Below are positions 3,001 through 25,269 of a stretch of DNA of 25,269 nt, piece after piece. How positions within the stretch are numbered: the stretch's first letter is position 1; every line of letters starts with the position of its first letter. This stretch comes from Paraspadella gotoi. Taxonomy: Eukaryota; Animalia; Chaetognatha. The notes beneath the pieces are model-generated. The model did no database searches. It saw only the letters and a list, made by a program, of their open reading frames with translations, and had not been told where the DNA came from. The stretch is taken from positions 1 through 25,269 of the forward strand of contig JBJCIZ010000703.1 of the NCBI GenBank assembly GCA_051294375.1, in the 5' to 3' direction. A program made the translations under genes and the position numbers.

Positions 3001-5272
3001 TTTTCTCTTTAATCTTATGTAAGCCTATTTCTCACTCTCAATAGATTAAAAAACGTTTAAAAATACACCAGGGAAAACGACTTTTTTCGACTAAAAAGAG
3101 ATATGAAAAACTTTAAAAATAACAGGAAAAACGATTTTTTTCAAAATTGTAAAAAGAAATTAAAAACTTTAAAAAACGGCAAACGTTTTTTTTCAATGAT
3201 AAAAAAGATGGTTAAAAACACCCAATTAAACGACTTTTCAAAGTAAAAAGTTATAAAAACGTTAATACAACCGGCAGACGATATTTACCAAGAGAGAACA
3301 ACTTTAAAACAAAAAGAAAAACGCTTTTTTTCCAAATGTAAAAAGAGAATAAAAAAATTTCTAAACACCGGGGAAAAGATATTTTCAAAGAAAAAAGAAA
3401 TAAAAACGTTAAAATACTTCTGCAAATAACAATCATCGAGGTTAGTTAAAAATTGGGGGAGAGCAGACAGTTATTAACATATCTTTTTTATCATAAACAA
3501 ACAAAATTTTCTTTCGTTTATTTTATGTCTCACATTCTCTCTTCTCTTTTCTCTTTAATTTTATGTAGCTTTCTCTCAACTCTCAAAAAAGATAAAAACG
3601 ATTAAATACACCAGAAACGTACTTTTCTCTGTAAAAAGAATATGAAAATTTAAAAATTAACAGAGAAAACTGATTTTTAAATCATAATAAAAAAAATTAT
3701 AAAAAAACTTCAAAAAAAAACGGCAAAAAGTTTTTTTTCCAATGTATAAGAGTTAAAAAAAACACCGAAATAAAACGACTTTTCTAAGGAGAGATAAAAA
3801 AGTGCATAAAAATCGTTAATACGGCGGCAGACGATATTTCCAAGCGATAACAACTTTTAAAAACAAAGAAAAACGCTTATTTTCCAATTAAAAAAGAGAT
3901 AATATTTCTTAAACCCGGGAAAACGATATTATTAAAGAAAAAAAGAAATAAAAACGTTACATACTTCTGCACAATAACATCATCAGAGGTTGTTAAAATT
4001 GGGTGAGGCCAGTTATTAATAATAAATCCTTTTATCAAAACAAACAAATTTCCTCTCTTTTATTTTTATGTTCTCCTTCTCTCTCATCTTTTCTCTTTTT
4101 AATTTTTATGTAGCTTTCTCTCACTCTCAATAATATAAAAACGTTAAATACACAGAAACCGACTTTTTCTCTGTAAAAGATCTGAAAACTTTGAAAAATA
4201 AAAATCAAGAAAACGATTTTTTCAATGTAAAAAGAAAAAAACTTTTAAAAAAAGCGGCAAACGTTTTTTTTCCAATGTTAAAAGAGTTAAAAAACACCGA
4301 ATAACGACTTTTTCTAAAAGTTTTAAAAAGTAATAAAAACGTATAAAACACCAGGCAGACGACATTTCCAAAGATAACAACTTTTAAAAACAAAGAAAAA
4401 CGCTTATTTCCAATTGTAAAAAGAGATAAAAAAATTTACTAAAAACACCGGAAAAACGATTATTTTTAAAGAAAAAAGAAATTAAAACGTTAAATACTAT
4501 CTGCAAATAACATCATTGAGGTTGTTAAAAATTGGGGTGAGGACAGTTATTAAATATTCTATGTTATCAAAAACAAACAAATTTCCTCTCTTTTATTTTT
4601 ATCTCCTTCTCTCTCTCTTTTCTCTTTAATTATTATTATAGCTTTCTCCTTACTCTCAATAAGATAAACAGTTAAATACCACCAAGAAACGACTTTTTCT
4701 CTGTAAAAAGATTATGCAAAACTTTTAAAAATAACAGGAAAACGATTTTTTCAATGTAAAAGAAATAAAAAACTTAAAAAAAAACGGAAACGTTTTTTCC
4801 AATGGTAAAAAAGAGTCTAAAAACACCGATAAACGACTTTTCTAAAGCTAAAAAGTGATAAAAACGTTAATACAGCGGGCAGACGATATTTCCAGAGATA
4901 ACACTTTAAAAACAAAGAAAAACGCTTTTTTTCAATGTAAAAGAGATAAAAATTTCTAACAAACACCGGAAACGATAATATTTCAAAGGAAAAAGAAATC
5001 AAAACGTTAAATACTTCCGCACAATAACATCATCGAGGTTGTTAAAATGGGTTGAGGACAGATTTAATACATATTCTTTTTCAAAAACCAAACAAAATTT
5101 CCTCTCTTTTATTTTTATGTCCCTTCACTCTCTCTTTTTCTCTTTAATAATTTATGTAGCTTTCTCTCACTCTCAATAGATAAAAACGTTTAATACACCA
5201 GAAAAACGACTTGTTATATCTGTAAAAATTGAAAACTTATAAAAAAAAATAACAGAAAACGATTTTTTTTTG
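1..5272 (-). repeat. AT-rich tandem satellite, ~520-550 bp unit, ~9.5 copies (left arm, reverse orientation)
   Basis: The landmark ACATCATCGAGGTTGTTAAAATTGGGTGAGGACAGTTATTAAATATC recurs near 735, 1280, 1820, 2370, 2920, 3470, 4010, 4545 and 5060. Copies differ mostly by 1-bp indels. Confidence 0.97.
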
Positions 5273-5276
5273 TGTA

Positions 5277-8200
5277 ATATTTTTATAACTGTCCATCACC
5301 CAAATTTTTAAAACTCGATTTGATGGTTTATTTGTGCAGAAGTATTATAACCGTTTTTATTTCTTTTTTCTTTTTGAAATTATTCGTTTTCACGGTGTGG
5401 TTTTAGAAATTTTTTTAATCTCTTTACATTGAAAAAAGCGATTCCTTTTCTTGTTTTTAAAGTTGTTATCTCTTTGTGAAATATCGTTCTGCCGTCCTGA
5501 TAATATTAACGTTTTATTCACTTTTACTTATAAAGGAAAAGTCGTTATCAGTTGGATATATATTTTTGTATAATTTTTTTACATTTTGGAAGAACAAACG
5601 GTTTGCCCGTTTTTTTTTTTGTTAATGTTTTTAATTTCTTAAATTACATTTGGAAAAAAAATACTAAGTTTTCTTAGTAATTTATTTTTAAAGCTTTTCA
5701 TATCTTTTACAGAGAAATAGGTCGTTTCTGGATTTGTATTTAACGCTTTATATCTATTGAGAGTGAGAGAAAGCTACCATAAAATTTAAAGAGAAAAGAG
5801 AAGGGAAGGAGACATAAAAAATTAAAAAGAGAGGAAATTTGTCTTCCTGTTTTATAAAGATATTTAATTAATGTCCTCACCCAATTTTAACAACCCTCGA
5901 TGATGTATTGAGAAGTATTTAACGTTTTTATTTTTTCTTTTTTGTTTTTTTAAATTCGTTTTTTCCGGATGTTTTTAGGAATTTTTTATCTCTTTTTACT
6001 TGGGAAAAGCGTTTTTTCTTTTGTTTTTAAAGTTGTTATCTCTTTGGGAAATGATCGTCTGCCCGTCAGGTTTGTTTGTTTTTAAGCGGTTTTTATTACT
6101 TTTTTACTTTAGAAAAGTCGTTTTATCGGTAGTTTATTTAACTCTTTTTACATTTGGAAAAAAACGTTTTGCCGTTTTTTTTTTAAGAGTTTTTTATTAT
6201 TCTTTTTCATTGGAAAAAATCGTTTTCTGTTATTTTTTAAGTTTTATATCTTTATACAGAGAAGAAAGTCGTTTTTGGTATGTGTGTATTTAACGTTTTT
6301 AATCTTTTGGAGTGAGAGGAAAGCTACATAAATTAAGAGAAAAGAGAGAGAGGAAGGAGACATAAAATAAAGAGAGGGAAATTTGTTTTTGTTTTTGATA
6401 AAAAGATATTTTATATATCTGTCCCTCACCCAATTTAACAACCTCCAGATGATGTTATTTGCCAGAAGTATTAACGTTTTTTATTTCTTTTTTTCTTTTG
6501 GAAAATATCGTTTTTCGGTGCTGTTTTGAAATTTTTATCTTTTTTTTACATTGGAAAAAGCGGTATTTTTCTTTGTTTTTAAAGTTTGTTTTGCTCTTTG
6601 GAAATATCGGTCTTGCCGCTTGATATTTACGATTTTTATCACTTTTACTTTAGAAAAGTACGTTTTATCGGATGTTTTTTTTTATATTTTACATTGAAAA
6701 AAACGTTTGCCGTTTTTTTTTAGAGTTTTTATTTTTCTTTTTTTACATTGAAAAAAAATATCGTTTTCTGTTTATTTTTAACAGTTTTCATATCTTTTTG
6801 ACGACGAGAAAAATCGTTTTTTGCTGTGTATTTAACGTTTTTATCTTTTTGAAGTAATTGAGAGAAAGATACATTAAAATTAAAGAGGAAAGAGAGAGAG
6901 AAGGGACATAAAAATAATAAGAGAGGAAATTTGTTTGTTTTGATAAAACGATATTTAATAAATCTGGTCCATCACCCAATTTATTAACAACCCTCGATGA
7001 TGTATTTGCAGAGTATTTACCGTTTATTTCTTTTTTTTTTGAAAATATTCGTTTCCGGTTTTAATTCATGTTTAGAAATTTTTTATCTCTTTTACATATT
7101 GGAAAAAGCTTTTCTTTGTTTTTAAAGTTAGTTATCTCTTCTGGAAATATCGTTGTCTTGCCGCCCCTTTGGTATTTAACGTTTTTAATCACTTATTTAC
7201 TATTAGGAAAAGGTCGTCTTATCGGTGTTTTTTTTATATTTTATTTACATTGGAAAAAAAAACGTTTGCGTTTTTTTTTTTTAGTTTTTTATTTTCTTTT
7301 TACATTGAAAAAATGATTTTCTGTTCTTTTAAAAGTTTTCTATACTTTTTACGGAGGAAAAAGATCGTCTTTCTTGGTGTAATGTATTTAACTTTTTATC
7401 TTCTTGAGTTGAGAGTGAGAGAAAGCTACATAAAATTAAAGAGAAAGGAGAGAGATGTGGAGAATAAAATAAAAGAGAGGAAAATTGTTTGGCGTGTTTT
7501 GATAAAAAGCATATTTAATAACTGTCCTCACCCCAATTTTAACAACCTCGATGATGTTGGATTTGCAGAGTATTTAACGTTTTTTATTTCTTTTTTCTTT
7601 CGAAAATATCGTTTTCCGATGTTTTAGAAATATTTTTTTATCTCTTTTTACATTGGAACAAGCCGTTTTTCTTTGTTTTCTAAATGTTGTTTTCTCCTTT
7701 GGAAATATCAGTTCTGCCGCTGTATTTACACGTTTTTATCACTTTTTACTTAGGAAAAGCGTTTATCGGTGTTTTTTTTTATATTTTTTTACATTGGGAA
7801 AAAACGTTTGCCGGTTTTTTTTTTTATGTTTTTATTTCTTTTATCATTTGAAAAAAATCCCCCGTTTTCGTTGATTTTTTAAGTTTTCATATCTTTTACA
7901 GGAGAAAAAGTCAAGATAATTTAAATCTTTGGTTGTATTTTAACGTTTTTTATCTTTTGAGAGTGAGGAAGAAAGCTAACATAAAAATTCAAACTGAGAA
8001 AAGAGAGGAGAGAAGAGGAGACATAAAAATAAGAAGAGGAAATTTGTTTTGTTTTTGATAAAAAGATATTTTAATAAACTTCCTCACAATTTAAACAACC
8101 TCAGATGATTTATTTGCACAAGTATATTTAACCGTTTTATTTCTTTTTCTTTGAAAATATCGTTTTCCGGTTCGGTTTTAGAAATTTTTATCTCTTTTTA

Positions 8201-11200
8201 CAATTGGAAAAAGCGTTTTTCTTTGTTTTTTAAAGTTGTTATCTCTTTGGAATATTTCGTCTGCGCTTGTATTTAAGTTTATCACATTTTACTTTAGAAA
8301 AGTCGTTTATCGGTTTATTTTTTTATATTTTTTTACCAATTGGAAAAAAAACGTTTTGCCGTTTTTTTTTAAAGTTTTTGTTTCTTTTTACCATTGAAAA
8401 AAAATCGTTTTCATGTTCTTTTAAAAGTTTTCATATCGGTTTTTACGCAGAGGACGAAAATCGTTTTTCGTTATTCTGGGTTGTATTTAACGTTTAATTA
8501 CTTTTGAGAGTAAGAGAAAAGCTACATAAATTAAAGAAGAAGAATGAGAGACGTTTGGCAGACATAAAATAATAAAGAGAGGAAATTTGTTTGTTTTTAT
8601 AAAAAGATATTTTAATAACTGTCCTCACCCATTTTAACAACCTCGATGATGTTATTTGCAAAAGTATTTAACGTTCTTTAATTTTCTCTTTTTCTTTGAA
8701 AATATCGTTTTCCGGCTTTTTTAGAAATTTTTTATCTTCGTTTTTACCATTGGAAAAAGGCTGTTTTTCTAATGTTTTTTAATAGTTGTTATCTCTTTGG
8801 AAATATCGTCTGCCGCTGTATTTTAACGTTTTTATCATTTTTACTTCAGAAAGTCGTTTAATGCGGTGTTTTTTTTATATTTTTTTTACATTGGAAAAAA
8901 CGTTTGCCTTTTTTTATAAAGTTTTTTATTTCTTTTTACATTTCGAAAAAAATCGTTTTCTGTTATTTTAAAGTTTCCATATCTTTTTAGCGAGAAAAAG
9001 TCGTTTTCTTGGTGTGTGTAATTTAACGTTTTTTATCTATTGAAGGTGAGAGGAAAGCTACATAATAACTTAAAAGAGAAAAGAGAGAGCGAGAGGACGA
9101 CATAAAAATTAAAGAGAGGAAATTTGTTTTTTTGATAAAAAATATTTAATAAATGGTCCTCACCCAATTTTAACAACTCGATTGATGTTATTTGCAGAAG
9201 TATTTAACGTGTTTATTAAGTTCTTTTTTCTTTTGAAAATATCGTATTTTCCGGTTGTTTTAGGAAATTTTATCTCTTTTACATTGGAAAAAGCGTTTTT
9301 TTTGTTCTCTTAAACGTTGTTATCTCTTTGGAAATGTTCGTCTGCCTAAGGCTATTTAAAACGTTTTTGATTTTACGTTTTTACTTTTTAGAAAAGTCGT
9401 TTTTCGGTGTTGGTTTTTTAACTCTTTATTTACATTTGGAAAAAACGTTTTCCGTTTTTTTTTTTAATTGTTTTATTTTCTTTTTACATGGGAAAAATCG
9501 TTTTCTGTTATTTTAAGTTTCACTATTCTTTTTACAGAGAAAAAGGTCTTTTTCGGTGACTTTGTATTTAACGTTTTATATCTATTGAGAGTGAAGAGAA
9601 GCTACATAAAATAAAGAGAAAGAGAGACAGAGAAGGAGACATTAAAAATATAAAGAGAGGAAATTTGTTTGTTTTGATAAAAAGATATTTAATAAACTGT
9701 CCTTCACCAAATTTTACAACCGTCTGATGATGTATTTGCAGAGAGTATTTAACGTTTTTATTTCTTTTTTCTTTAAAAAGATCGATTAATTTCGGATATC
9801 TGTATTGTTTAAAATTTTTTATCTCTTTTTACATTTGAAAAAAGCGTTTTTCTTTGTTTTTAAGTCATTGTATAATCTCGTTTGGAAATAAATCGTCTGC
9901 CGCGTGATAATTAACGTATTTATCACATTTTACTTTAGAAAAGTCGTTGTATCGGTGTTTTTTTAACTCTTTTTTACATTGGAAAAACGTGCCCTTTTTA
10001 TATTAAAGTTTTTATTTTCTTTTACATGGGGAAAAATCGTTTTTCTCGTTTATTTTCTTAAAGTTTTCATATCTTTTTATCAGAGCATAGAAAAAAATCG
10101 TTCTGGCTTTCTTCTGTGTATTTAACGGTTTTTTATTTTTGAGAGTGAGAGAAAGCTACCTAAAATTTTAAGAGAAAAGATGAGGAGAGAGAAGAGGAGC
10201 ATAAAAATAAAAGAGAGGAGAATTTGTTTGTTTTGATAAACTAAACATATTTTAATAACTGTCCCCTCACCCAATTGTTAACAACCTCGATGAAATGTTT
10301 ATTTATGCAGACAGTATTTAAGGTTTTTATTTCTTTTTTTACTTTGGAAAATATCGTTTTAGAAATTTCCTTTATCTCTTTTTACTTTGGAAAAAGCGTT
10401 TTTCATTTTTTTTAAAGTTGTTATCTCTTCGGAAATATCGTCTGCCGGTTTGTATTAACATTTTATAATTACTTATTTACTTTTAGAAAAGGGTCGGTTT
10501 AATCGTGTGTTCTTTTAAATCTTATTTACATTTGGAAAACACGTTTGCCGTTTTTCTTTTAAAGTTTTTTATCTCTTTTAATTGGAAAACAACGTTTTCT
10601 GTTATTTTAAGTTTTCATATCTTTTTACAGAGAAAAAGTCGTCTTTTTCTGTGATATTAACGTTTTATCTATTGAGAGTGAGAGAAGAGTACATAAAATT
10701 AAAGAGAAAAGAGAGAAGAGAAGGAGACATAAAAAATAAAAGAAAGGAAATTGGTTCTTGTTTTCGATAAAAAGATATTTAATAACTGTCCTCACCCATT
10801 TTAACAACTCTCGATGATGTTATTTGCAGAAGTATTTAACGGTTTTTTATTTTTTTCTTTGAAAATTATCGCTTTCCGGTGTTTTAAAATTTTTAATCAT
10901 CTTTTACATTGGAAGCTACAAAGCGTTTCTTCTGTTTTAAGTTGTTATCTCTTTGAGATATCCGTTCTACCGCTGTATTTAACCGTTTTTATCACCTTTT
11001 TACTTTAGAAAAGTCGTTTATCGGTAGTCTTTTTTATATATTTTTTACATTTGGAAAAAACGTATTTGCCGTTTTTTTTAAAAGGTTTTTAGTTTCTTTT
11101 ACATTGAAAAAAAATCGTTTCGTTATTTTTAAAGTTTTCATATCTTTTTACGAGAGAAAAAGTCTGTTTTCTCTGTGCTTTTATTTAACTTTTTATTATT

Positions 11201-12202
11201 GAGCAGTGAAGAGAAGCTACATAAAATTAAAGAGAAAAGAGAGAGAGAAGGAGACAAAAAATAAAAGAGAGGAAAAATTGTTTGTTTTTGATACAAAAGA
11301 ATTTAATACTGTCCTCTACCCATTTTAACATAACCTCTGATGATGTTATTTGCAGAAGTATTTTAACGTTTTCTATTTCTTTTTCTTTGAAATATCGCTT
11401 TTCCGGTTGTTTTTAGAAATTTTTTATCTTCTTTTTACATTGGAAAAAAGCGTTTTTTCTTTGTTTTTTAAAGTTTTATCTCTTGGAAATATCGTTCTGC
11501 CGCTGTATTTAACGTTTTTCTATCACTTTTTACTGTTAGAAAAAGTCGTTAATGTCGGTGTTTTTTTTTATATTTTTTTGACATTGGAGAAAAACGTTTG
11601 CCGTCTTTTTTGTAAGTTTTTATTCTTCTTTACATTGAAAAAAAATCGTTTTCTGATTATTGTTTTAAAGGTTTTTCCATTTTAATTTTTTTTTTTTCTT
11701 TTTTACAGAGAAGAAAGTTCGTTCTGGTGTATTTAAACGTTTTTATCTATTGAGAGTGAGAGAAAGCTACATAAAATAAGAGAAAAGAAGGAGAGAGAAG
11801 AGACATAAGAAATACAAGAAGGAAATTTGTTGTTTTGATAAAAAGATATTTAATAACTGTGCCTCACCCATATTTAACAACCTCGAGTTGATGTTATTGC
11901 AAGTATTTACGTTTTTATTTCTTTTTTCTTTTAAAAATTCGTTTCCGGTGTTTAGAAATTTTTTATCTCTTTTTACATTGGAAAAAGCGTTTTTCTTTGT
12001 TTTTATAAGATTAATTTATCTCTTTGGAAATATCGCTCTGCCGCTCTGTATTTAACGTTTTATACTTTTACTTTAGAAAGTCGTTTATCGGTGTTTTTTT
12101 AACTCTTTTTACACTTGGAAAAAACGTTTGCCGTTTTTTTTTTAAATTTTTTATTACTTTTTACATTGGAAAAAATCGTTTTCCTGTTATTTTTAAGTTT
12201 TC
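5277..12202 (+). repeat. Same satellite in the opposite orientation, ~12.7 copies (right arm)
   Basis: The reverse-complement landmark ATAACTGTCCTCACCCAATTTTAACAACCTCGATGATG recurs near 5285, 5870, 6420, 6965, 7520, 8080, 8617, 9152, 9696, 10256, 10783, 11307 and 11853. Confidence 0.97.
12199..12202. other. Left target-site duplication (TTTC)
   Basis: The satellite consensus AAGTTTTCATATC is broken after ...AAGTTTTC. TTTC reappears at 24857-24860, followed by ATAATCTTTTTACAG. The boundary is uncertain by 1 base. Confidence 0.6.
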
Positions 12203-12478
12203 CACGACCAAACCAGCCTGAGCGCGAGTCTCGTGTTCTGCCAGCCACGCGATCTCCTCCTCTTCCTCCTCCAGGCACCCCAGGGGTCGAGGCTCACCAG
12301 TTTCACTTCTCCTCTTCCTCGATTCTCTCCTCTCTCTCTCTTCTCTACTCTCCTCTCTTTCTTACAACCGTTTCTTGTTACCTTTTTTGCCTTCTTTTTT
12401 TAGTACATATACTCTCCCACATTTTTGTCTTTTTCTTACGAGTTTTTCAGTCAGCCAGATACCACCATCCAGATAGAG
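12203..12478 (+). repeat. 5' LTR (~276 bp)
   Basis: CACGACCAAACCAGCC...CCATCCAGATAGAG aligns end to end with 24576-24856; differences are mostly single-base indels. Confidence 0.92.
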
Positions 12479-12493
12479 TGGACGCCCAATGTG
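12479..12493 (+). promoter_or_regulatory. Primer-binding site, tRNA-Lys(CUU)-type
   Basis: TGGACGCCCAATGTG directly follows the 5' LTR. It matches the known tRNA-Lys1,2 PBS TGGCGCCCAACGTG with one inserted A and one mismatch. Confidence 0.75.
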
Positions 12494-12582
12494 CTGCTCT
12501 TACACTATCCACTAAGAAACCCCTAGAAATCCACTAAAAATCCTCTCACACTACTAGACTTAACGAGCGCTTACCGGGACAC

Positions 12583-12670
12583 AAACTGAGCTGCTAACCG
12601 GGACTTAACCAAAACTGAGCTGCTAACCGGGAACTTAACCAAAACTGAGCTGCTAACCGGGACTTAACCA
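12583..12670 (+). repeat. 29-bp tandem repeat x3 just downstream of the PBS
   Basis: AAACTGAGCTGCTAACCGGGACTTAACCA three times head to tail, without spacers. Confidence 0.93.
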
Positions 12671-13154
12671 AAAATACAGATCTTCACCTATTTCCCCCTT
12701 ACCTTGTAACTTTAGCAATATAGCAAACCTAACTATTTCCCGTTCTTCTTTTATGACCTTGCTCTCTGACATCCTTATTTAACATTTATCTGACCGCTTT
12801 TCTCTCTGACTCCGACTCCCGCCAATTTTTCCCGCTCTACCGATTTCGCCGAAATTTTTTCCTCTCTCTTTCCTCGCCAAAACTGGACTTTTTTGATTTC
12901 TTTCTTTTTCTCCAACGACTCTCTTTCTTTCTCCGCCAAATTTTCGCCGAAACTTTTTCTCCCGCCGATCTTCGCCACTTGGATTATACCCGCGTTTCGC
13001 CGAGCCCCGACATTCCGTTCCCTTCTTTCCCTTCCCTACCCCTTTCTCCCACTTTCCTTTCCCGCGCGATGTCAGATAACAATCTGAAAAGGGTCAGATT
13101 CTCTTTCCCCACCTTTTCCATATCGAGCCCATTTTCTTCCCCACTTTCTGTCTT

Positions 13155-13950
13155 CTGAATCCATTTCGATTCCGTTTCAAATCCATTTCTTTTTCCCCAC
13201 CTTTTCCATACCAAATTCATTTCTTTCTCTTTCCCCACCCTTTCCATACCAAATCCATTCCGAATCTATTTCCTTTTTTCCCCATCCTTTCCATTCCATA
13301 ACCAATTCGAACCCGTTTCGAATCCAATCCAAAATCAATTTCAAACCCACCTCGAATCTATTTTCCTCCCCATTTTCTTTCCATTTCAAATCCAAATACC
13401 AATCCATCTCAAATCTGTGTCGAATCCATTTTCCATCTTTATCCACTCCAAGTCCGATTCGATTCCATTTCAAATCCATTTCCCTCCCCATTCTATCCAA
13501 TTCGATTCCATTTTGAATCCATTTCGAATTCATTTCGAAACCATTCCATTCAATTTTTGAATCCATTTTGAATCCATTTTGAATCCATTTCGAATCCGTT
13601 TCGAAACCATTCCAATCCATTTCGAACCCCTTTTGAATCCTCTTTGAATCAATTTTGAATCCATTTCGAATCCAATTCGAAACCATTCCAATCCATTTCA
13701 AATCCCCTTTGAATCCATATTAAACCCATTTTTAAATCCAACTTGAATCCGTTTTGAATCCTTTTTTCGAATCCATTTTTGAATCCACTTTGAATCTATT
13801 TTTGAATCCATTTTGAATCCACTTTAAATCCGTTTCAAATCCACTTTCGAATCCATATTGAACCCATTTTCAAATCCACTCTGAACCCATTTTAAAATCC
13901 ATTTTCGAATCCGTTTAAAATCCACTTCAAATCGATCCCGAATCCACTTC
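13155..13950 (+). repeat. Degenerate ~11-bp minisatellite (GAATCCATTTT/TTCGAATCCAT)
   Basis: Dozens of GAATCC/AAATCC cores about 11 bp apart. Confidence 0.85.
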
Positions 13951-13984
13951 CTCCCCATTTTCTCCACAAATTGGATTACCCACC

Positions 13985-14186
13985 ATGAAACGTCGAATTC
14001 ACCATCACCACAACCGTCGAGGTCCACGTCGATGGGAACAGACTGGAAACGCACACTTTTACAAACAGAGGTGGCCAGGTGAGGGTTGCGCTATATAGAA
14101 ACGACCCACACGAAATCCGACTACTGCCCAACAACATCCAGTCAACAGCAGGCAGAGCGCCGTCGCCTGACTCCACCAGCGATTGA
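13985..14186 (+). CDS. Cryptic ~66-aa leader ORF of unknown function (needs one 1-bp correction)
   Basis: CCACCATG Kozak context. Removing one A from ATGAAAC gives MNVEFTITTTVEVHVDGNRLETHTFTNRGGQVRVALYRNDPHEIRLLPNNIQSTAGRAPSPDSTSD*. It sits in a unique, GC-balanced island between repeats. Confidence 0.4.
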
Positions 14187-14235
14187 TGTCCCACCTTTTC
14201 CTTGCCTTCTTTTTCACTTTCCTTTGCCAATCTGT

Positions 14236-14545
14236 TCCGGTCAAATATTCTCTTCACCTCCTTTCTACTGAGTCAGGTCCTATCCTCGCCTCAGCAGAAT
14301 TGAGCCGTCCACCCCCCCCTGTTCTTTTCACCTTTTCTTTCCCCAAAAATCTTTATTCGGTCAAATTAATTTCTTAACCTCCTTTCTATGGAGTCGGTCC
14401 TCTCCCCGCTCGGCAGAATATTGAGCCCCCTACCCTTTATTTCACTTTCCCCCAACATCTTTTTCGGTCAAAAATATCTTTTCACCTCCTTTCTACTGAG
14501 GTCTGGTCCTATCCCCGCCTCAGCAGAATTGAGTCCCCTCCCCCT
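14236..14545 (+). repeat. ~110-120 bp imperfect tandem repeat x3
   Basis: CGGTCAAA...CACCTCCTTTCTACTGAGTC.GGTCCTATCC.CGCCTCAGCAGAATTGAG at about 14238, 14357 and 14465. Confidence 0.8.
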
Positions 14546-14825
14546 CTCCAAAATCCCCCCGCCGCCGTCTCAGGCTCTCAATTAACCGACTCTTGACCGA
14601 CAGACGTCCCTCCCCCCTGTGATATGAAAACTAACAACAAACGTACTTCAGTGAAAAGAAAGCCTGTCTCAATAAAATTCTGTAAAGTTCTATCAAAGGA
14701 AACTGTCTTCTGTTTATACAGACAAATAACAAAAATATCCTTGTCAAATTCCTGTCAAATACAAACAACGACTAGTACAAATTCTCTAAATAGATAATAA
14801 ATTCGCAACCATACTACTAAAATCC

Positions 14826-14954
14826 TACTAAAAAGTCGCTCACCTAATGTGTAGAGTGACAATAACATTACTAAAAAGTCGCTTGCCTAATGTGTAAAGT
14901 GGCAATAACATTACTAAAATCGTCAGCACCTAATGTGTGCAGACAAATAGACAT
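14826..14954 (+). repeat. 43-bp tandem repeat x3
   Basis: TACTAAAAAGTCGCTCACCTAATGTGTAGAGTGACAATAACAT-like units at 14826, 14869 and 14912. Confidence 0.85.
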
Positions 14955-16169
14955 CGTCGTCGTCGTTGTTGGAAGTAACTAAAAACTAAATCGATAGAAA
15001 GAAACCGATTGAAATCTGACTGAAATCTGTATAAAAAAAAAAAAAGAGAAAAGAACTAGAGAGATTCCTGATGAAAGTATTTGAAGCAACATGCCCATAA
15101 AAATCTTTAAAACCTTGACGATTTCCTTCATCCATCTCAATATCCACTCCACCTTCTTCCCTTCTCCCTCCTCCCCTCAATCGACGGAGGTGAATAACCC
15201 AGCTCTTACTCTGAGAATCATCACCACTCCCCTCCACCTCCATCCCTCCACTCGGTCAGGTTTCACCAACCCCTATCCATACCCGACTCCCCTCCCACCC
15301 AGATCCCCTCCGACCTCCCCCGATCGTCCCAGGGCCGATCGCCGATCGCCGATCGCCGACGAGCCACTAGTCAACCCTGGTGAAGAGATAAGAGAGAATT
15401 GCATGCACGCGATTCCTTTTCTCTAACAATTCGGGATTTCCAATTTCACTCCCACTTCACTCTCTTTCACAATCCTCTTTCCAGATTTCCTTCTTTCACT
15501 CTCGCTTTCCCTTTGTAAATTTTTTTCCTTTCTTTTTCTCTCCCTTTGTCTCTCTCTTTTTAATAAGGACGAATTTTTTTTCATATTTCTAAATACCCAA
15601 TTCGTAAACCCTTTCTCTCTTTTTCTCCTTTCTCTTTCTCCTCTTTCTTTCACTCACTTTCTCTTTCTCCTTCTCTTCTCTTTCTTTCCTTTCTCTTTTC
15701 CTCTCACTCCCATCCCTCCGCTCTCCTCTCCCCCACTCCATCACCCCACATTCCATTCCCGCCGACTCTTCTTCCCCCTCGACTGCGCCATTTGTCAGCC
15801 ACTAGCTGTCATCTTTGTCGCAGAGTCTGACTTGTCGGTCATCATTACTGACGCCTTCGCCGTCACTTTCACATTCCTTGAGCAATTAACCGCCCAAAGC
15901 ACCTGCTCGGAAAGAAAAGGAGATCGACCGATCTTTCCTTGAACCATCGAGAAGACTCGGTCAGACTCCTCTCCACACTCAGCCACTGCACCCCCCTACA
16001 CCCCTCCCTCTTCTCCCTTCACCCCTCTCCATACCACTAAAGGAAATCGTCGAAAGAAAGAAAGAAAGTCAGAAAGTAACCTTGATTGACAGCCGCCTGC
16101 GAATAAAGTAAAAAAGAAGAGAGTAAACTCAGAGCCTTACTTTACCTCTACTTTCACCTTCATATTTAA

Positions 16170-16422
16170 AATTAATAATAACAATAATATAAATATAACT
16201 AATAATAATTAATAACAAAGAATAATAATAATTAATAACAAATAATAATAATTAATAACAAATAATAATAATTAATAACAAATAATAATAATAATTAATA
16301 ACAAATAATAATAATAATAACAATAATAATAATATAATATAATTAATAATATAATTAATAATAACTAATAATAAATAATAATGAACAATAATAATAATAA
16401 TAAAAATAAATAAAATAATAAA
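16170..16422. repeat. (AAT)n microsatellite with ~20-bp higher-order periodicity
   Basis: AATAATAATAATTAATAACA repeated; almost pure A/T. Confidence 0.92.
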
Positions 16423-16439
16423 CATATTTGACATCCCGC

Positions 16440-16700
16440 TTTCGAATTCCTCTCCTTCGAATCTTTTTTCGAAATTTCTCTCTCGATCCCTTCCCCTCTC
16501 GATTCCTCTTTCGACTTCTGGAAAGTTCTAGAAAGTTCTTTCGAAATTTCCCTCTCGATTCCTCTTTCGACTTCTAGAAAGTTCTAGAAAGTTCTTTTCG
16601 AAATCTCTCTCTCGATCTCTTCCCTCTCGATCTCTTCCCTCTCGATTTCTCTTTCGACTTCTGGTAATTTCTAGAAGGTTCTTTTCGAAATTTCTTTCTC
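16440..16700 (+). repeat. Imperfect repeat rich in TTCGAA/TCTAGA/CTCTCGAT
   Basis: TTCGAAATTTC.CTCTCGATTCCTCTTTCGACTTCT.GAAAGTTCTAGAAAGTTC recurs about three times. Confidence 0.75.
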
Positions 16701-16709
16701 TTCTCCTTT

Positions 16710-16952
16710 CCCACATCGAATTGCGTCACAATTAATCATAATCGAATCATGTTGAGCCACATTAAACGGCGATTCCCCACATGGAATTGAGTCACATTTA
16801 ATCATAATTGAATCACGTTGAGCCACAGTAAACGTCGATTCCCCACATCGAATTGAGTCATATTTATTCACAATCGAATCACGTTGAGCCACATTAAACG
16901 TCGATTCCCCAAATCGAATTGAGTTACATTTAATCATAATCGAATCACATTG
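16710..16952 (+). repeat. 66-bp tandem repeat x~3.7
   Basis: CCCACATCGAATTGAGTCACATTTAATCATAATCGAATCACGTTGAGCCACATTAAACGTCGATTC-like units at 16710, 16776, 16842 and 16908. Confidence 0.9.
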
Positions 16953-17029
16953 AATCTCGGTTCCATGCAATGAAGTGAGTCACAGTGATTCGAGATCCCT
17001 TCACGTCGGATCACATCGAAACGCATTAG

Positions 17030-17450
17030 ATCACTGGATCATTAAATCATTGTGTTATTAAGTCATTAAACCATTAAGTCTTTGGATCACTGAATCATTA
17101 AATCATTGGATCATTACATCATTAAGTCATAAAAATCATTAAGTCATTGAATCATTAAGTCGATGAAACATCGAATCACATTAAATCATATTAAATGACA
17201 TTAAATCACACCAAGTCACGTCGAATCATATTAAATCACATCAAATTTCATTAAAACACAGTGATCCTCATTTAGGTCACATTTGGGTCACGTTTGGGTC
17301 ACATTTAGGTCACACTTGGGTCACATTTAGTCACATCGATTCGCGTTGAGTCACGCTGAGTCACATTGAATCTAAACTTTTTTTCATATTGAATCACACT
17401 GAGTCACATTGAATCACATTGAATCACATTAAGCAACATTAAAAAACATA
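17030..17450 (+). repeat. Degenerate 8-11 bp repeats (AAGTCATT, GAATCACATT, TTTGGGTCACA)
   Basis: Runs of related short units that also form the core of the 66-bp repeat. Confidence 0.75.
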
Positions 17451-17529
17451 TCAGAGAACATTTAAGTATTTTTCCCTCAAATTATCCCTTGAGTCACATT
17501 TTTCACATTTTCCTTTTTTCTCACATTAT

Positions 17530-17631
17530 TCCATCTGAGTTCCATCTGAGTTCCATCTGAGTTCCATCTGAGTTCCATCTGAGTAACATCTGAGTAACAT
17601 CTGAGTAACATCTGAGCAACATCTCAGTAAC
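17530..17631 (+). repeat. 11-bp tandem repeat (TCCATCTGAGT x5, then AACATCTGAGT-like x4)
   Basis: Directly visible. Confidence 0.92.
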
Positions 17632-17729
17632 AAACTTTATATAACATTTTCTTGGTAACTTTTAATAACATTACAAATTATTCATATAACCCTCCACAAC
17701 AACTCTGTCATATAAAAAAAATTTTATTA

Positions 17730-18041
17730 TTAAGCTCCACATTTAAGCTCCACATTTAAGTTCCACAATTGAATTCCACAATTAAGTTCCCAAGTTAAGT
17801 TCCCAAATTGAGTTCCCAAATTAAGTTCCCAAATTGAGTTCCCAAATTAAATTCCACAATTAAATTCCCAAATTAAATTCCACATTTAAGTTCCACATTT
17901 GATTTCCACATTTAAATTCCACATTTAAATACCACATTTGAATTCCACAATTAAGTTCCCAAATTAAGTTCCCAAATTGAGTTCCCAAATTAAATTCCAC
18001 AATTAAGTTCCCAAATTAAGTTCCCAAAGTTAAGTTCCCAG
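17730..18041 (+). repeat. 13-bp tandem repeat (TTAAGTTCCCAAA/TTAAATTCCACAT), ~24 copies, ending ~15 bp before the gag ATG
   Basis: Directly visible 13-bp period. Confidence 0.93.
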
Positions 18042-18056
18042 AAGAAAATCATAAAA

Positions 18057-19288
18057 ATGAGCGACTTAGTGAGATCCACAGCTAGGGCCCAGGCGATCCC
18101 CGAATCCAACAACGAGGGTGAGAGATCAAATCCCCACATTAGGCAAAGATCGAGATCAAGGTCTCTAGATTACAGCAGGTCAATCGTGAGACGGGCCAGG
18201 TCCTGCTCAAGGGACGGCAGCGTCAAACGGCATGACCCAATACCCACACCCAACCACCCAACCACCAACGCCAACACCAACGGCAAAACCACCCCTAACC
18301 ACACCCTCCCCGACCCTGGTGAGTGGACTTCACTCCCCCAATTCCAAACAAGGAGAAGCACTCCACCACCAGTACAGAGTGATGATTCAAGTGAGGATGA
18401 AGATGAAGACGACAATATCGGTCTTCAGAAACTTGAGAACATTTGTCTTGACAATGAGAGGCATAAGATGAGTGTCACAACACTCACCTCTGAGTCTAGT
18501 CTAAGACACAGGGAGATCACTCACCTCAAACAATGCCTTTCTGAGGCAGAGATGGACATAATCAACTACAAGGATAAGAATGAGGACCTTGCTAAGGAAA
18601 ATGCTGAGCTCAGAGCGACATTAAAATTAATGAGAAATGAGGACAGGGAAAGAGCTGCGTTAGAGGCCGCAAGAGAGATTGACAGAAAACTCATCGATGA
18701 TGAAACTGCATCCTCTGTCTCGCCAGCAACATCAACAACTGCACTCCCAACACAATTAGCCAGACAGCGATCGGCCAAGCGGTCACTTTCGACTCGAAAT
18801 GAATCGATCAAGGTCCGGCCCGCCGACCCCCAATTAACCCATGCCTCTACCCCAGGACCCCAATCACCTCCCCCTCCACCTCCCCATAAAAACATGACCA
18901 CTGAAACAGACCAATTTGTGTCAGCCCTGAAAGAAGAACTGAGAAAGATGTACAAAAAGAAAGAGGCCTGCCGCTCACAACTGAGAGAAATGACATCAAT
19001 GCTCTCAGGCGTGAGAAGCATTGATATTGACCGCGAGCGCTCTGACCGTGATAGCAAGAAATCCACCTCTAAATCGAGCTCTCACAAAGCCCTTATCATA
19101 GATGATGATAATGATGATGATGACAGACATGATGAGAATGACGACGTCGGCGTCCCCACTGTCGACAAATCGATTCCCTTAAAAGCAAAAAACTTTCCTT
19201 CCAGAGAATCTAGCGCCTCCTTCTCTGATTACCTAGTTGCACTTAAAACATACATAAATACCTTTATCTACACTAGACAATATCTGCC

Positions 19289-19338
<50 letters not shown>

Positions 19339-20540
19339 ACAATGCACCACAGCAATATACACAGCCGCAGCTCTCCCCCTCACCCCCCCTGTTACAAATC
19401 ACGACCCCTCAACAACAACAACAACTCGCTTTTCCAGCTGTGGCTCCGTCATATAACCAACAAGCAGCCCAGCCTCCACAACAACAACAACAAACTCAGC
19501 CTCCGAGTTACAACCAAATCCTCAACAGCGACCAAACCCTGCCAAAACCTTTTGTTAGAGCAGATGGTTCAGTCACCTTCCGACCTAAGAAATCTGACAG
19601 AATCCCAGCCCCACCTGGAACCCAAAGAATGCCACCAAATGCAGAAAGCGACCCATCGTTTAGAGGGAAGGTCTGCCTAAATTGCCGACAAGTGAACTCT
19701 CACGAGACTTCATACTGCCAATTTAAAAATTATTGCACATTGTGCAACATTGAAGGTGACCACGTGACACGATGGTGTCCTTTCTTACAACAGGCGACAG
19801 CCTGGCGTCAACAAAATCAAACAGGTTGGCGGCCACCGGCGTCCCCGGGTGAGAAATGTTTTGAGAACCTCGTAGAGATAATTTCCCAAACATTTGACAA
19901 TAAGTTTAATTCTGTACATAATGCGCGTAACTGTATCATAGCAGCATATAACAATAGCTTTCGTCTAAAGCCCTCTGACACTTTCTCAGATCGCATTGAG
20001 GATCTACCTGGGGGCATCGTCATCGATGCCGTTGCCAAAGCAATAAATTGCAACATTGAAATCTTTGCTGACAAAGAACTGTACTACAAAACCTTTGCAA
20101 ACCATATTTACAGCATGTCCTTTGAGTTTAGCTTTGTAACCAATACCTTTGCACCAATATTTGTAGAAAAAGCCGTGAACGCATGCCCCACCCCAAATAC
20201 ACCCATAACAAATTCGGAAACTAGAATCAAACCCTGTTTTGCGCAGTTACTAGATATGAAAAAAGAAACAAGAGAATTACTTATCAATGCAGCAGGTAAT
20301 ATTGAAACAAAAAGACATATTCACGACATCCTAAATAGCAGCAGCGATTACAAAAAACAAAAGAGTATTGTGCCAACCAAAGTCAGCATCAGTATTACGC
20401 CGACCGAAAACCCCATTAATATTGCGCCACCCAAAATCATGCCCACACCAATCCCCATAGGGACAGAATCAGAAAAACTCCCCCAAAAACATTATAAACC
20501 CAATAAACAACAGCTTTACAACCTCAAGAGGTTCCATTAA
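18057..20540 (+). CDS. gag: Gag-like protein, 827 aa, with two CCHC knuckles and a C-terminal OTU-like domain
   Basis: The only long ORF, in gag position between the PBS and protease. RS-rich N-terminus, acidic patch, coiled-coil-like segment, polyQ (19290-19337), PPSY (19500-19511), and CLNCRQVNSHETSYC plus CTLCNIEGDHVTRWC (19674-19778). Confidence 0.85.
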
Positions 20541-20865
20541 AACTAACAACAACCAAGTATGGGATACTGTTATAGGACAAGACCTCCCAGATTTAGAATA
20601 TGAGGAATGCTTATTATATACATAAACTAATGGGAACCCCAATGAGAAAGAAACCACCCATAATGGGTGTACAATTACAAATATGCTTTCAACATAGTCT
20701 ACCTCACTCTTAAACAAATCAAATATAATAGACTTCCAACAAGTTCTTAATACTAACCAACAGGGTAAAGGGTCTAACCTCTACTTGATTGGAAAATTTG
20801 ACAATAAACTTGTAAAAGAGATGGTGCTAGATACGGGTGCTACGACCTCACTAATCAGTGATTAG
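20461..20865 (+). pseudogene. pol: pol remnant: retroviral-type aspartic protease N-terminal half
   Basis: The frame +1 relative to gag reads ...LYLIGKFDNKLVKEMVLDTGATTSLISD* (LDTGA at 20827-20841). There are two upstream in-frame stops (TAA, TAG), and it is truncated just after the active-site motif. Confidence 0.85.
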
Positions 20866-21120
20866 TAATCACTAATCTCTCCCCGGGCCCTCTCCAGAAA
20901 TTTCCCCCCAAATTCAGACCCCCGGGGACAAACATTTGGGCGACGTTATACCAAGCGATTCGGATTCCAACAAGGTTGATGAGTTTGAACAGCGCAATAC
21001 CGAAACAGAGGGCACCACAATTGCATCACAAAGAGCTCCAGGGTTGAATCACTCCTCCATCAGGTCTGCAAAGCTAGGAATATAAAGACACCACCAAGCC
21101 TGGTTCTGAACAACACAGAA

Positions 21121-21373
21121 AAATTTGAAAAGGGAGAAACAGTATTAATTTGGCGAGATTTTGTTGAGAAAAAAAATAAATACAAAAGTTAAGAGTTTAC
21201 AATATAAACTTTATCCCAAATATGAATTAGCATGAGTCATTGACGAAACAGGGGACGATTACCTTGTCTAACCCATGGACGGCGCTACTTCCCGTGTTGT
21301 GAACCGCCGCACCATGAAAAAGTTCTATAAAGAATTAGCGCCACCATTGCGAGTGAGCGAAGAGCCACAATAG
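21121..21373 (+). pseudogene. pol: pol remnant: integrase C-terminal (GPY/F-module/SH3-like) domain
   Basis: KFEKGETVLIWRDFVEK / KLYPKYELA*VIDETGDDYLV*PMDGATSRVVNRRTMKKFY fits the F..GD.VL...KL.P.Y...V......Y.V......VH...LK.Y pattern of gypsy integrase C-termini. One frameshift in an A-run and two stops. Confidence 0.7.

Positions 21374-22648: not shown

Positions 22649-22694
<46 letters not shown>
22649..22694 (+). repeat. Poly(A) tract, 46 nt
   Basis: Directly visible. Confidence 0.95.
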
Positions 22695-22696
<2 letters not shown>

Positions 22697-23122
22697 GTGA
22701 AATAGCCGGCAGAGAGAATAAAGGGCGAGTGCCACCACTAGATTTAGACCAACACCCCTCTACCAAACCCACACCCCCTTCACCCCCAATACATGGGCCC
22801 ACTGCCAAAAACCACCCCCCCTCCTTTCCCCTTTTTCTACCGTGAGGGCCATAGAACAGAAGCAAACAAAAAAAAGCATCTACATTACATTATCCTTTTA
22901 TTTTGCTGTTCTGACCCCATCTCCACAAATTCTGCATATAGAAAGTCTTGTACAAACAACCACCCATTTTCCAAAGATATTATTATACATACTGTGAAGA
23001 AACTTTGCATATCTTGCATAGTTCTGCATATTCTACACACTTCACATCTTCTTTTTCTTTTCATGCCACAAGTTATATATATTGGTTGTACCAATTTCAT
23101 ACATATTCACTGCATTAACAAG

Positions 23123-23467
23123 ATGCACAGGGATAACACAAATCACACTCCATTATCGCCCGTAGCTGCTCCATCAGGACTTGCTTGCCCTGATCAGCGC
23201 ACAGCGATCTTGCACGCTGAGCAAATGAACAGGTTAATAACAAAATATTCACCAGAATCACAATTCGTTATACTGGGACATAGTTTCCGGACCATTTGGC
23301 AGGGCGACCGGGTCTACACCTTGCTATCGAAATATGGCTATGTCTCACCTAACGAAATCGACTCTAAGGCAGAAAGGGACCTGGTGGCTGTCGTAGCCAA
23401 CAACGATGCCATATTGCGTCTCTGCCACAAGACCAGGATCACACCAATACACCTAGAAAGAAAATGA
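23123..23467 (+). CDS. Orphan accessory ORF (114 aa; may continue by frameshift to ~23714)
   Basis: C-terminal half of the 224-aa track ORF, from the ATG at 23123. Composition is mixed and globular-looking (...QFVILGHSFRTIWQGDRVYTLLSKYGYV...). An overlapping frame continues NDTITHPTECQMAIAQRL... up to the poly(A). Confidence 0.45.
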   Translation: MHRDNTNHTPLSPVAAPSGLACPDQRTAILHAEQMNRLITKYSPESQFVILGHSFRTIWQGDRVYTLLSKYGYVSPNEIDSKAERDLVAVVANNDAILRLCHKTRITPIHLERK

Positions 23468-23714: not shown

Positions 23715-23742
23715 AAAAAAAAAAAAAAAAAAAAAAAAAAAA
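23715..23742 (+). repeat. Poly(A) tract, 28 nt
   Basis: Directly visible. Confidence 0.95.
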
Positions 23743-24564: not shown

Positions 24565-24573
24565 AAGAGGGGG
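24565..24573 (+). promoter_or_regulatory. Polypurine tract
   Basis: AAGAGGGGG two bases upstream of the 3' LTR start. Confidence 0.65.
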
Positions 24574-24575
24574 CG

Positions 24576-24856
24576 CAACGACCAAACCAGCCCGAGCGCG
24601 AGTCTCGTGTTTCGCCAGCCACGCGACTCTTCCTCCTCTTCCTCCTCCAGGCACCCAGGGGTCGAGGCTCACCCAGTTTCACTTCTCCTTCTCCTCGACT
24701 TCTCTCCTCTCTCTCTCTCTCTACTCCTCCTCTCTTTCTTACACCGTTTTTTGTACCTTTTTTGCCTCTTTTTTTAGTACATATACTCTCCCACATTTTT
24801 GGTCTTTTTCTTACGAGTTTTTCAGTCAGCCCGAGATACCACCCATCCAGATAGAG
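24576..24856 (+). repeat. 3' LTR (~281 bp)
   Basis: CAACGACCAAACCAGCC...CCATCCAGATAGAG, a direct repeat of 12203-12478. Confidence 0.92.
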
Positions 24857-25269
24857 TTTCATAATCTTTTTACAGAGAAAAAGTCGTTTTCTGGTGTATT
24901 TAACGTTTTTATCTTTTGAGAGTGAGAGAAAGCTACATAAAATTAAAGAGAAAAGAGAGAGAGAAGGAGACATAAAAATAAAAGAGAGGAAATTGTTTTG
25001 TTTTGAAAAAAAGATATTTAATAACTGTCCTCACCCAATTTTAACAACCTCGATGATGTTATTTGCAGAAGTATTTAACGTTTTTATTTCTTTTTTCTTT
25101 GAAAATATCGTTTTTAGAAATTTTTTATCTCTTTTTACATTGAAAAAGCGTTTTACTTTGTTTTTAAAGTTGTTATCTCTTTGGAAATATCGTCTGCCGG
25201 TTTATTTAACATTTTTATTACTTTTTACTTTAGAAAAGTTTCGTTAGGTGTTTTTTTCAACTCCTTTTT
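24857..25269 (+). repeat. Satellite resumes (partial unit), beginning with the right TSD copy TTTC
   Basis: TTTCATAATCTTTTTACAGAGAAAAAGTCG continues the unit interrupted at 12202; the landmark appears at 25021. Confidence 0.95.

What the first reader, a model, noticed from the sequence alone, without database searches (positions are those of the whole stretch)
19824..20165. OTU deubiquitinase-like domain between nucleocapsid and protease of an LTR retroelement
Four motifs occur in OTU order and plausible spacing: PGEKCFENLVEII (cf. GDGNCLFRAIS), VHNARNCIIAAY (cf. H..LR..VV.Y), FSDRIEDLPGGIVIDAVAKAINCNIEIF (cf. F..Y...M...WGG..EL.A.A..L.V.I.IF) and MSFEFSFVTNTFAPI (cf. I.L.Y...HY..L). The Cys is kept but the catalytic His position appears to be Thr, suggesting a pseudo-enzyme or ubiquitin binder. 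OTU domains are established in nairoviruses, arteriviruses, tymoviruses, Helitrons and some non-LTR elements; I do not know them as a standard part of LTR Gag-Pol. This is the strongest novelty candidate here, judged by eye only.
Basis: partly seen in the sequence, partly recalled or inferred. Interest (0 to 1): 0.8.

Follow-up and report, generated by a model that had tools for sequence, protein, structure and literature searches.

The report
Dead OTU-fold domain in retrotransposon Gag
A jumping gene of the LTR type carries, between its zinc knuckles and its protease remnant, a conserved 106-residue stretch that likely has the fold of a ubiquitin-removing OTU enzyme but lacks the catalytic histidine, so it is likely a dead enzyme kept as a binding module, a placement not found in the papers searched.

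Summary
The four motifs are at the stated place (aa 597-702 of an 827-aa ORF, 18057-20540), between two CX2CX5HX4C knuckles and a broken aspartic-protease motif, inside a 12.65-kb internally deleted LTR element with Ty3/Gypsy domain order. The segment is real protein: against a second, less deleted copy type in public runs dN/dS is 0.17. OTU kinship is likely but not proven. Pfam, PDB and three homologue searches gave nothing for it. A profile of 27 viral OTU domains scores it weakly (23 of 3000 shuffles reach it). The ESM Atlas returns OTU clusters as its top three hits (0.83-0.84, lead level). An AlphaFold model seeded with OTU sequences reaches pLDDT 77, which is partly circular. Only the helix-strand motif matches well. 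So an active deubiquitinase is unlikely and classical ubiquitin binding is doubtful. Verdict: probably a pseudo-OTU domain retained at the end of Gag; a new variant of the known theme of OTU domains in mobile elements; moderate interest.

The parts
12203..12478 (+). 5' LTR (about 276 bp), inserted in a ~545-bp satellite
   Evidence: 93% identical to 24576-24856 over 285 columns
12479..12493 (+). primer-binding-site-like sequence starting TGG directly behind the 5' LTR; resemblance to a tRNA-Lys site is recalled, not tested
12494..18056 (+). 5.6-kb leader filled with minisatellites (periods 8-76 bp), no long meaningful ORF
18057..20540 (+). ORF1, 827 aa, Gag-like: Ser/Arg-rich start, coiled coil, Gln/Pro-rich part, two knuckles, OTU-like segment, Pro-rich tail; no capsid family recognised
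19674..19778 (+). two CX2CX5HX4C zinc knuckles (aa 540-554, 560-574); with the 45 residues before them 42% identical over 95 aa to unnamed protein P0002
19845..20162 (+). OTU-like segment, aa 597-702, catalytic His position Thr697, W-loop Trp absent
20698..20859 (+). aspartic protease remnant with DTG motif (20830-20838), broken by stops and cut off by a deletion
   Evidence: motif read by eye, no Pfam hit
20878..20898 (+). short remnant resembling the end of RNase H (by eye, recalled motif)
21025..21370 (+). integrase C-terminal remnant in pieces in two frames (GPY/F-type module by eye); a run contig holds 1165 further letters in front of it
   Evidence: no Pfam hit
24565..24573 (+). polypurine run just before the 3' LTR
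24576..24856 (+). 3' LTR, followed by TTTC, which also precedes the 5' LTR (3- or 4-bp target duplication; edge ambiguous)

Best explanation
The segment is a conserved protein domain at the end of the Gag-like protein of an LTR retrotransposon that likely descends from an OTU deubiquitinase, has lost its catalytic histidine, and is likely kept as a non-catalytic binding module. Shown: position, open frame, purifying selection, Thr at the His position in both copy types. Inferred: an ancestor of this lineage captured an OTU domain behind the knuckles (relatives with the same knuckles have another domain there); the active site then decayed while the fold was kept. Being in Gag, the domain would be made in many copies and sit in or on the particle, on a linker between nucleocapsid and protease from which the protease could release it. 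Most likely role (inferred, about even odds within this reading): a decoy or docking surface for parts of the host ubiquitin system that shields Gag and the particle from degradation, by a surface other than the classical ubiquitin site.
For: dN/dS 0.17; 13 amino-acid changes where 21.6 were expected, 0 of 5000 random placements as low; core changes are conservative (I/V, V/A). The segment differs at 37 of 325 bases, the next 152 bases at 30, and the linker beyond does not align at all. Custom profile p about 0.008-0.03; 1 of 77 natural decoys reached the score. Motif order and spacing are collinear. OTU-seeded AlphaFold model pLDDT 77, pTM 0.69, helices followed by four strands; its top 20 VIA rows are all OTU-class (best Z 6.9, rmsd 3.6, 100 aligned). 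Codons for T695, N696, T697 differ only silently in the second copy type. Post-knuckle part of the 7 relatives is unlike both the segment and OTU.
Against: No Pfam hit at E up to 10, no PDB sequence hit, no relative of the segment in 1.84 billion representatives or three word searches. Profile score 3.7 bits against 33-174 bits for true OTUs left out in turn. hhalign no signal. Atlas scores are under 0.9 with 131-134 of 256 features, and the segment alone gave 0.75 to an unnamed cluster. The unseeded model is all-helical, pLDDT 46, with no OTU among 50 rows. The seeded model has no control, its five models range 59-77, and its matches stay under Z 8 and above E 0.001. Cys-to-His spacing of 93-96 is just below the reference range 97-156. 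No binding partner was tested.
Confidence: 0.6

Rival explanations
1. The segment is a folded, lineage-specific Gag domain unrelated to OTU; one helix-strand motif resembles OTU by chance and misleads reader, profile and language model alike.
For: Blank results; only one of four motifs stands out; reader, profile and Atlas all read the same letters, so they are not independent; seeded model is circular.
Against: OTU as top hits among 7.7 million clusters; collinear order of helix, helix, helix-strand, strand, strand over a full domain length; seeded model confident over 95 of 115 residues.
Confidence: 0.22
2. It is an active, atypical cysteine protease or deubiquitinase that uses another pair, such as Cys601 or Cys626 with His683 or His621, as compact viral OTU-like proteases do.
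For: C626, H621 and H683 are unchanged in the second copy type and C601 is inferred unchanged (contig break pattern); C626 scores 1.7 bits for the Cys motif and one alignment put it on the catalytic column.
Against: C626 gives a spacing of 71, far below 97-156, and lies in the helix that matches the second OTU helix; H683 is in a loop and H621 in a helix of the model; no Asp/Asn two behind T697; no Cys loop is built (helix starts at aa 597).
Confidence: 0.08
3. OTU-derived and dead, but kept for a job unrelated to ubiquitin: RNA binding, condensate formation or particle assembly together with the neighbouring knuckles and Gln/Pro-rich part.
For: W-loop Trp missing; fly Otu and CG3251 lost the catalytic Cys and are proposed to have DUB-independent functions (PMC4654579, abstract seen); adjacency to nucleocapsid. 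This differs from the best explanation only in the partner.
Against: No test of RNA binding; mobile-element OTU domains are elsewhere tied to the ubiquitin pathway (PMC2836005, passages).
Confidence: 0.1

Closest known systems
Ginger1 DNA transposases with C-terminal OTU (PMC2836005; passages seen)
   Same: OTU domain fused into a mobile-element protein whose integrase is Gypsy-related; proposed role in the ubiquitin pathway
   Different: DNA transposons with TIRs; OTU follows the transposase and is recognised as pfam02338; here an LTR element, in Gag, below Pfam detection and without the catalytic His
Helitron/Helentron RepHel OTU-like protease (PMC6431247, PMC2836005; passages seen)
   Same: OTU as accessory domain of a transposon polyprotein in animals
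   Different: rolling-circle DNA elements; different position
Burro/GYPSM1 giant Gypsy-like elements of planarians (PMC6431247; passages seen)
   Same: extra domains linked to ubiquitination (MATH, Ubi2/SUMO-like) inserted between Gag knuckles and protease of a Gypsy-like polyprotein
   Different: no OTU named for them in the passages found; polyprotein near 5000 aa
Pseudo-OTU proteins: FAM105A/OTULINL, vertnin (PMC10318531, passages), Drosophila Otu and CG3251 (PMC4654579, abstract and outline)
   Same: OTU fold without deubiquitinase activity, retained for other functions
   Different: host genes; the fly proteins lost the Cys, here the His (and possibly the Cys) is lost; no sequence link shown
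Viral OTU proteases of nairoviruses and tymoviruses (PDB 3phx, 3phu, 4a5u)
   Same: compact OTU fold inside a viral polyprotein; best structural neighbours of the seeded model
   Different: active enzymes; the match is partly produced by the seeding alignment
Troyka LTR retrotransposons (PMC12440569; parts 1-3 of 5 read)
   Same: aquatic-animal LTR elements with non-TG..CA ends, 100-400 bp LTRs; the 3' LTR here could be read as starting CGCAA with a 3-bp duplication
   Different: 3' end here is ..AGAG not ..CG; knuckle CX2CX5HX4C twice, not CX2CX8-10HX4C; internal part 12.1 kb, above the 1.6-7.7 kb range

Membership tests
OTU family (Pfam PF02338) | score at or above the Pfam gathering cut-off (23.3 bits) | tested here: not met
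   no OTU hit at E up to 10 for the ORF or the segment; 12 of 14 reference domains passed in the same tool
OTU family (Pfam PF02338) | catalytic Cys at the start of a helix behind a D-G-x loop | tested here: inconclusive
   three registers: C601, N604 (best helix fit among aa 598-608), C626; no D-G-N loop at any
OTU family (Pfam PF02338) | catalytic His on the last strand | tested here: not met
   Thr697 in both copy types
OTU family (Pfam PF02338) | W-loop tryptophan of the ubiquitin site | tested here: not met
   W in 24 of 27 references; gap in the segment
OTU family (Pfam PF02338) | OTU (papain-like) fold | tested here: inconclusive
   Atlas top hits OTU at 0.83-0.84; seeded model pLDDT 77 matches OTUs at Z up to 6.9 but is circular; unseeded model uninformative
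OTU family (Pfam PF02338) | cleaves or binds ubiquitin | not testable with these tools
   needs an assay
LTR retrotransposon, Ty3/Gypsy type | LTR pair, primer site, polypurine tract, target duplication | tested here: met
   termini are not TG..CA
LTR retrotransposon, Ty3/Gypsy type | order Gag knuckles, PR, RT, RNase H, integrase | tested here: inconclusive
   PR, RNase-H-end and integrase-tail remnants read by eye in this order; no Pfam hits for three fragments; RT is deleted
LTR retrotransposon, Ty3/Gypsy type | RT phylogeny within Metaviridae | not testable with these tools
   no RT in the window; run contigs that extend past the protease cannot be read
Troyka | 5'-CG..CG-3' ends and CX2CX8-10HX4C knuckle | tested here: not met
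   both LTRs end ..GATAGAG; knuckles CX2CX5HX4C

The most novel reading that the evidence does not exclude
A Gypsy-type lineage has turned a captured deubiquitinase into a pseudo-enzyme built into Gag, a particle-borne decoy that blocks host ubiquitin-dependent clearance of retrotransposon particles without cutting ubiquitin. It would be the first pseudo-DUB kept under selection as a structural part of an LTR-element Gag, pointing to a ubiquitin-based restriction of retroelement particles in invertebrates.
Probability: 0.25. Interest if true: 0.72.

Novelty: new variant of a known kind. Interest (0 to 1): 0.45.

Why it matters
OTU and Ulp1 domains recur in DNA transposons and viruses, which is read as a sign that hosts fight mobile elements with ubiquitin. 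A domain that has lost catalysis yet stays under purifying selection inside Gag would show that binding alone can be worth keeping, and would give a 106-residue, easily expressed handle to find the host factor. It is one lineage in one genome, the fold is not proven and no partner is known, so the interest is moderate.

Tried and rejected
No whole genome is held for this window, so copies were seen only through run contigs. Pfam, PDB sequences: nothing for the segment. Word-based homologue searches: 0 of 219 candidates (454-1448 aa), 7 of 88 (45-371 aa, all knuckle matches), 0 of 2125 (372-2000 aa). Full HMMER scan: 1 hit, knuckles only. Related loci: none in viral contigs, none and then 1 in metagenome contigs (L034 is a 30-residue match in GC-rich DNA, judged chance), none in prokaryote genomes. 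Single-sequence AlphaFold model pLDDT 46 and its fold search were uninformative. hhalign showed no signal. No RNA holder listed, so expression is untested. No tRNA or Rfam family. From the 29 extracted viral OTU domains 2 mis-trimmed ones (L005, L018) were dropped before the 27-sequence profile; all references were picked by a D-G-N-C motif and are viral, so the set is biased. A complex prediction with ubiquitin was not run: with an OTU-seeded chain a pass would come from likeness to solved structures. Troyka membership considered and rejected. H683 as the catalytic His considered and rejected (it would cut off the last two strands).

Full report
Observation. Two CX2CX5HX4C knuckles precede them (aa 540-574). 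A DTG protease motif follows at 20830-20838; in this copy it is in another frame, behind the ORF's stop and further stops.

The element. A self-comparison finds one direct repeat pair around the region, 12204-12479 and 24578-24857, 93% identical over 285 columns. The left copy is followed at once by a TGG-starting primer-site-like sequence, the right copy is preceded by a purine run, and both sit in a ~545-bp satellite with a 3- or 4-bp duplication. The element is thus about 12.65 kb, with a 5.6-kb minisatellite-rich leader. Remnants of protease, the RNase H end and the integrase tail follow in Ty3/Gypsy order; these were read by eye from recalled motifs and three fragments gave no Pfam hit. 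Earlier unchecked notes call the genome an animal, possibly an arrow worm (e1-10588039); I did not test this.

Other copies. Eight DNA runs of two studies hold the stretch; four were laid and two again on the segment. Beside the window's own sequence, which may be the source, each holds a second contig about 3-4 times deeper (depth is no copy number, and that contig may merge copies). It is less deleted: one contig runs 2.1 kb past the protease motif, another holds 1165 extra letters before the integrase tail. In it the linker between segment and protease is replaced (335 by 454 letters), which puts the protease motif in the Gag frame by arithmetic; whether those letters are free of stops could not be seen. 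So a Gag-Pol fusion is inferred for that type only.

The segment is constrained. The second type differs at 37 (X1) or 36 (X2) of 325 bases; 33 are listed, the rest lie near the ends of the laid stretch. Over the 88 codons where the list is complete there are 18 silent and 15 replacing differences, dN/dS 0.17 (bootstrap 0.07-0.37); 13 residues change where random placement with the same share of transitions gives 21.6, and 0 of 5000 trials are as low. The next 152 bases differ at 30 places and the linker beyond does not align. The codons for T695, N696 and T697 change only silently.

Is it OTU? Against: no Pfam family for the segment at E up to 10, no PDB sequence hit, no relative in 1.84 billion representatives except at the knuckles, none in three word searches or four contig scans. 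I collected OTU domains from viral contigs by a motif pattern; 12 of the first 14 pass the Pfam OTU cut-off. With 14 of them the segment scores 1.5 bits (74 of 2000 shuffles reach it; true members left out in turn score 33-174 bits), whole-domain threading 29 of 300, hhalign nothing. With 27 (2 of 29 dropped as mis-trimmed) it scores 3.7 bits, 23 of 3000 shuffles, and 26 of 1000 in threading; 1 of 77 natural decoys reached it. For: the ESM Atlas, asked with aa 495-720, returned three OTU clusters on top (0.84, 0.83, 0.83; 8 of the ten best named hits share the family or clan). AlphaFold alone failed (pLDDT 46; fold search empty of OTU). With 12 OTU rows it gave pLDDT 77, pTM 0.69 and an OTU-like order of helices and strands, whose best matches are OTU domains (Foldseek E 1.3e-3, TM 0.57; VIA Z 6.9, rmsd 3.6, 100 aligned). 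This shows compatibility, not kinship: it is seeded and has no control. I put OTU descent at about 0.75-0.8.

Active site. Motif by motif, only PGGIVIDAVAKAINCNIEIF stands out (14.7 bits, next place 4.9) and the HNAR helix is the best place for its motif (4.9 bits). All whole-domain alignments put T697 on the catalytic His, with Ala two behind it, where 13 of 27 references have Asp or Asn. The W-loop Trp (24 of 27 references) falls in a gap. The Cys is uncertain: C601, N604 with an ungapped run to R624 and the best helix fit among aa 598-608, C626.

Mechanism. Shown: a constrained domain at the end of Gag, behind the nucleocapsid, without the His. Seven unnamed relatives share the knuckles but carry an unrelated region behind them, which fits a captured module in an exchangeable slot. 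Inferred: the fold is OTU, catalysis decayed, and the surface is kept for binding; as part of Gag it would be abundant and particle-associated; the likeliest partner is a component of the host ubiquitin system, with RNA or assembly roles as the alternative. Dead OTU domains with other jobs are known in hosts (PMC4654579, abstract; PMC10318531, passages).

Comparison and novelty. OTU domains are described in Ginger1 transposases and Helitrons (PMC2836005, PMC6431247; passages), and ubiquitin-related inserts between Gag and protease in planarian Burro elements (PMC6431247; passages). Seven full-text searches listed no paper that places an OTU domain in LTR Gag or Gag-Pol; I saw most hits only as listings, opened no supplements, and Repbase reports and subscription papers are outside the library. 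A chaetognath retroelement paper has no mention of OTU or ubiquitin (PMC2678813, term search). Unchecked notes of this scan report OTU genes in other LTR elements and a Cys-less OTU in a giant gypsy element (e1-8585436, e1-8580557, e1-10595186), so the theme seems recurrent. It is not filed as a PF02338 member (cut-off, His and Trp tests not met). Verdict: new variant of a known kind, interest 0.45.

Noticed in passing
window 455-5268 and 5735-12202, again from 24857: About 545-bp AT-rich satellite in two arrays of opposite orientation (about 9 and 12 copies) meeting near 5.3-5.7 kb; the LTR element sits inside the second array.
   Followed up: partly
window 12203-12478, 24576-24856: LTR ends are not TG..CA (start C(A)ACGACC or CGCAACGACC, end GATAGAG); target duplication TTTC or TTT.
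   Followed up: partly
window 12494-18056: Unusually long 5.6-kb leader made of many minisatellites, which differ in number between copy types (joints).
   Followed up: no
window 19548-19603: A third, more distant copy type matches only this pre-knuckle motif at 80% or more and runs on unlike on both sides (loose ends); its sequence could not be read further.
   Followed up: partly
window 19830-19876: Contig ends and starts imply about 47 bases identical between two copy types that differ by 11-17% elsewhere; it covers the start of the OTU-like segment and could reflect an RNA-level signal or conversion (inferred).
   Followed up: no
window 23078-23285: Short stretch with summed contig depth 40 to several hundred times its flanks, between two poly(A) runs (22649-22694, 23715-23742): probably a high-copy insert in the element's 3' region.
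   Followed up: no
P0002, P0009-P0014: Unnamed proteins share the pre-knuckle motif and double CX2CX5HX4C knuckle but carry a different, Pfam-less region behind it, suggesting an exchangeable slot after the nucleocapsid.
   Followed up: partly
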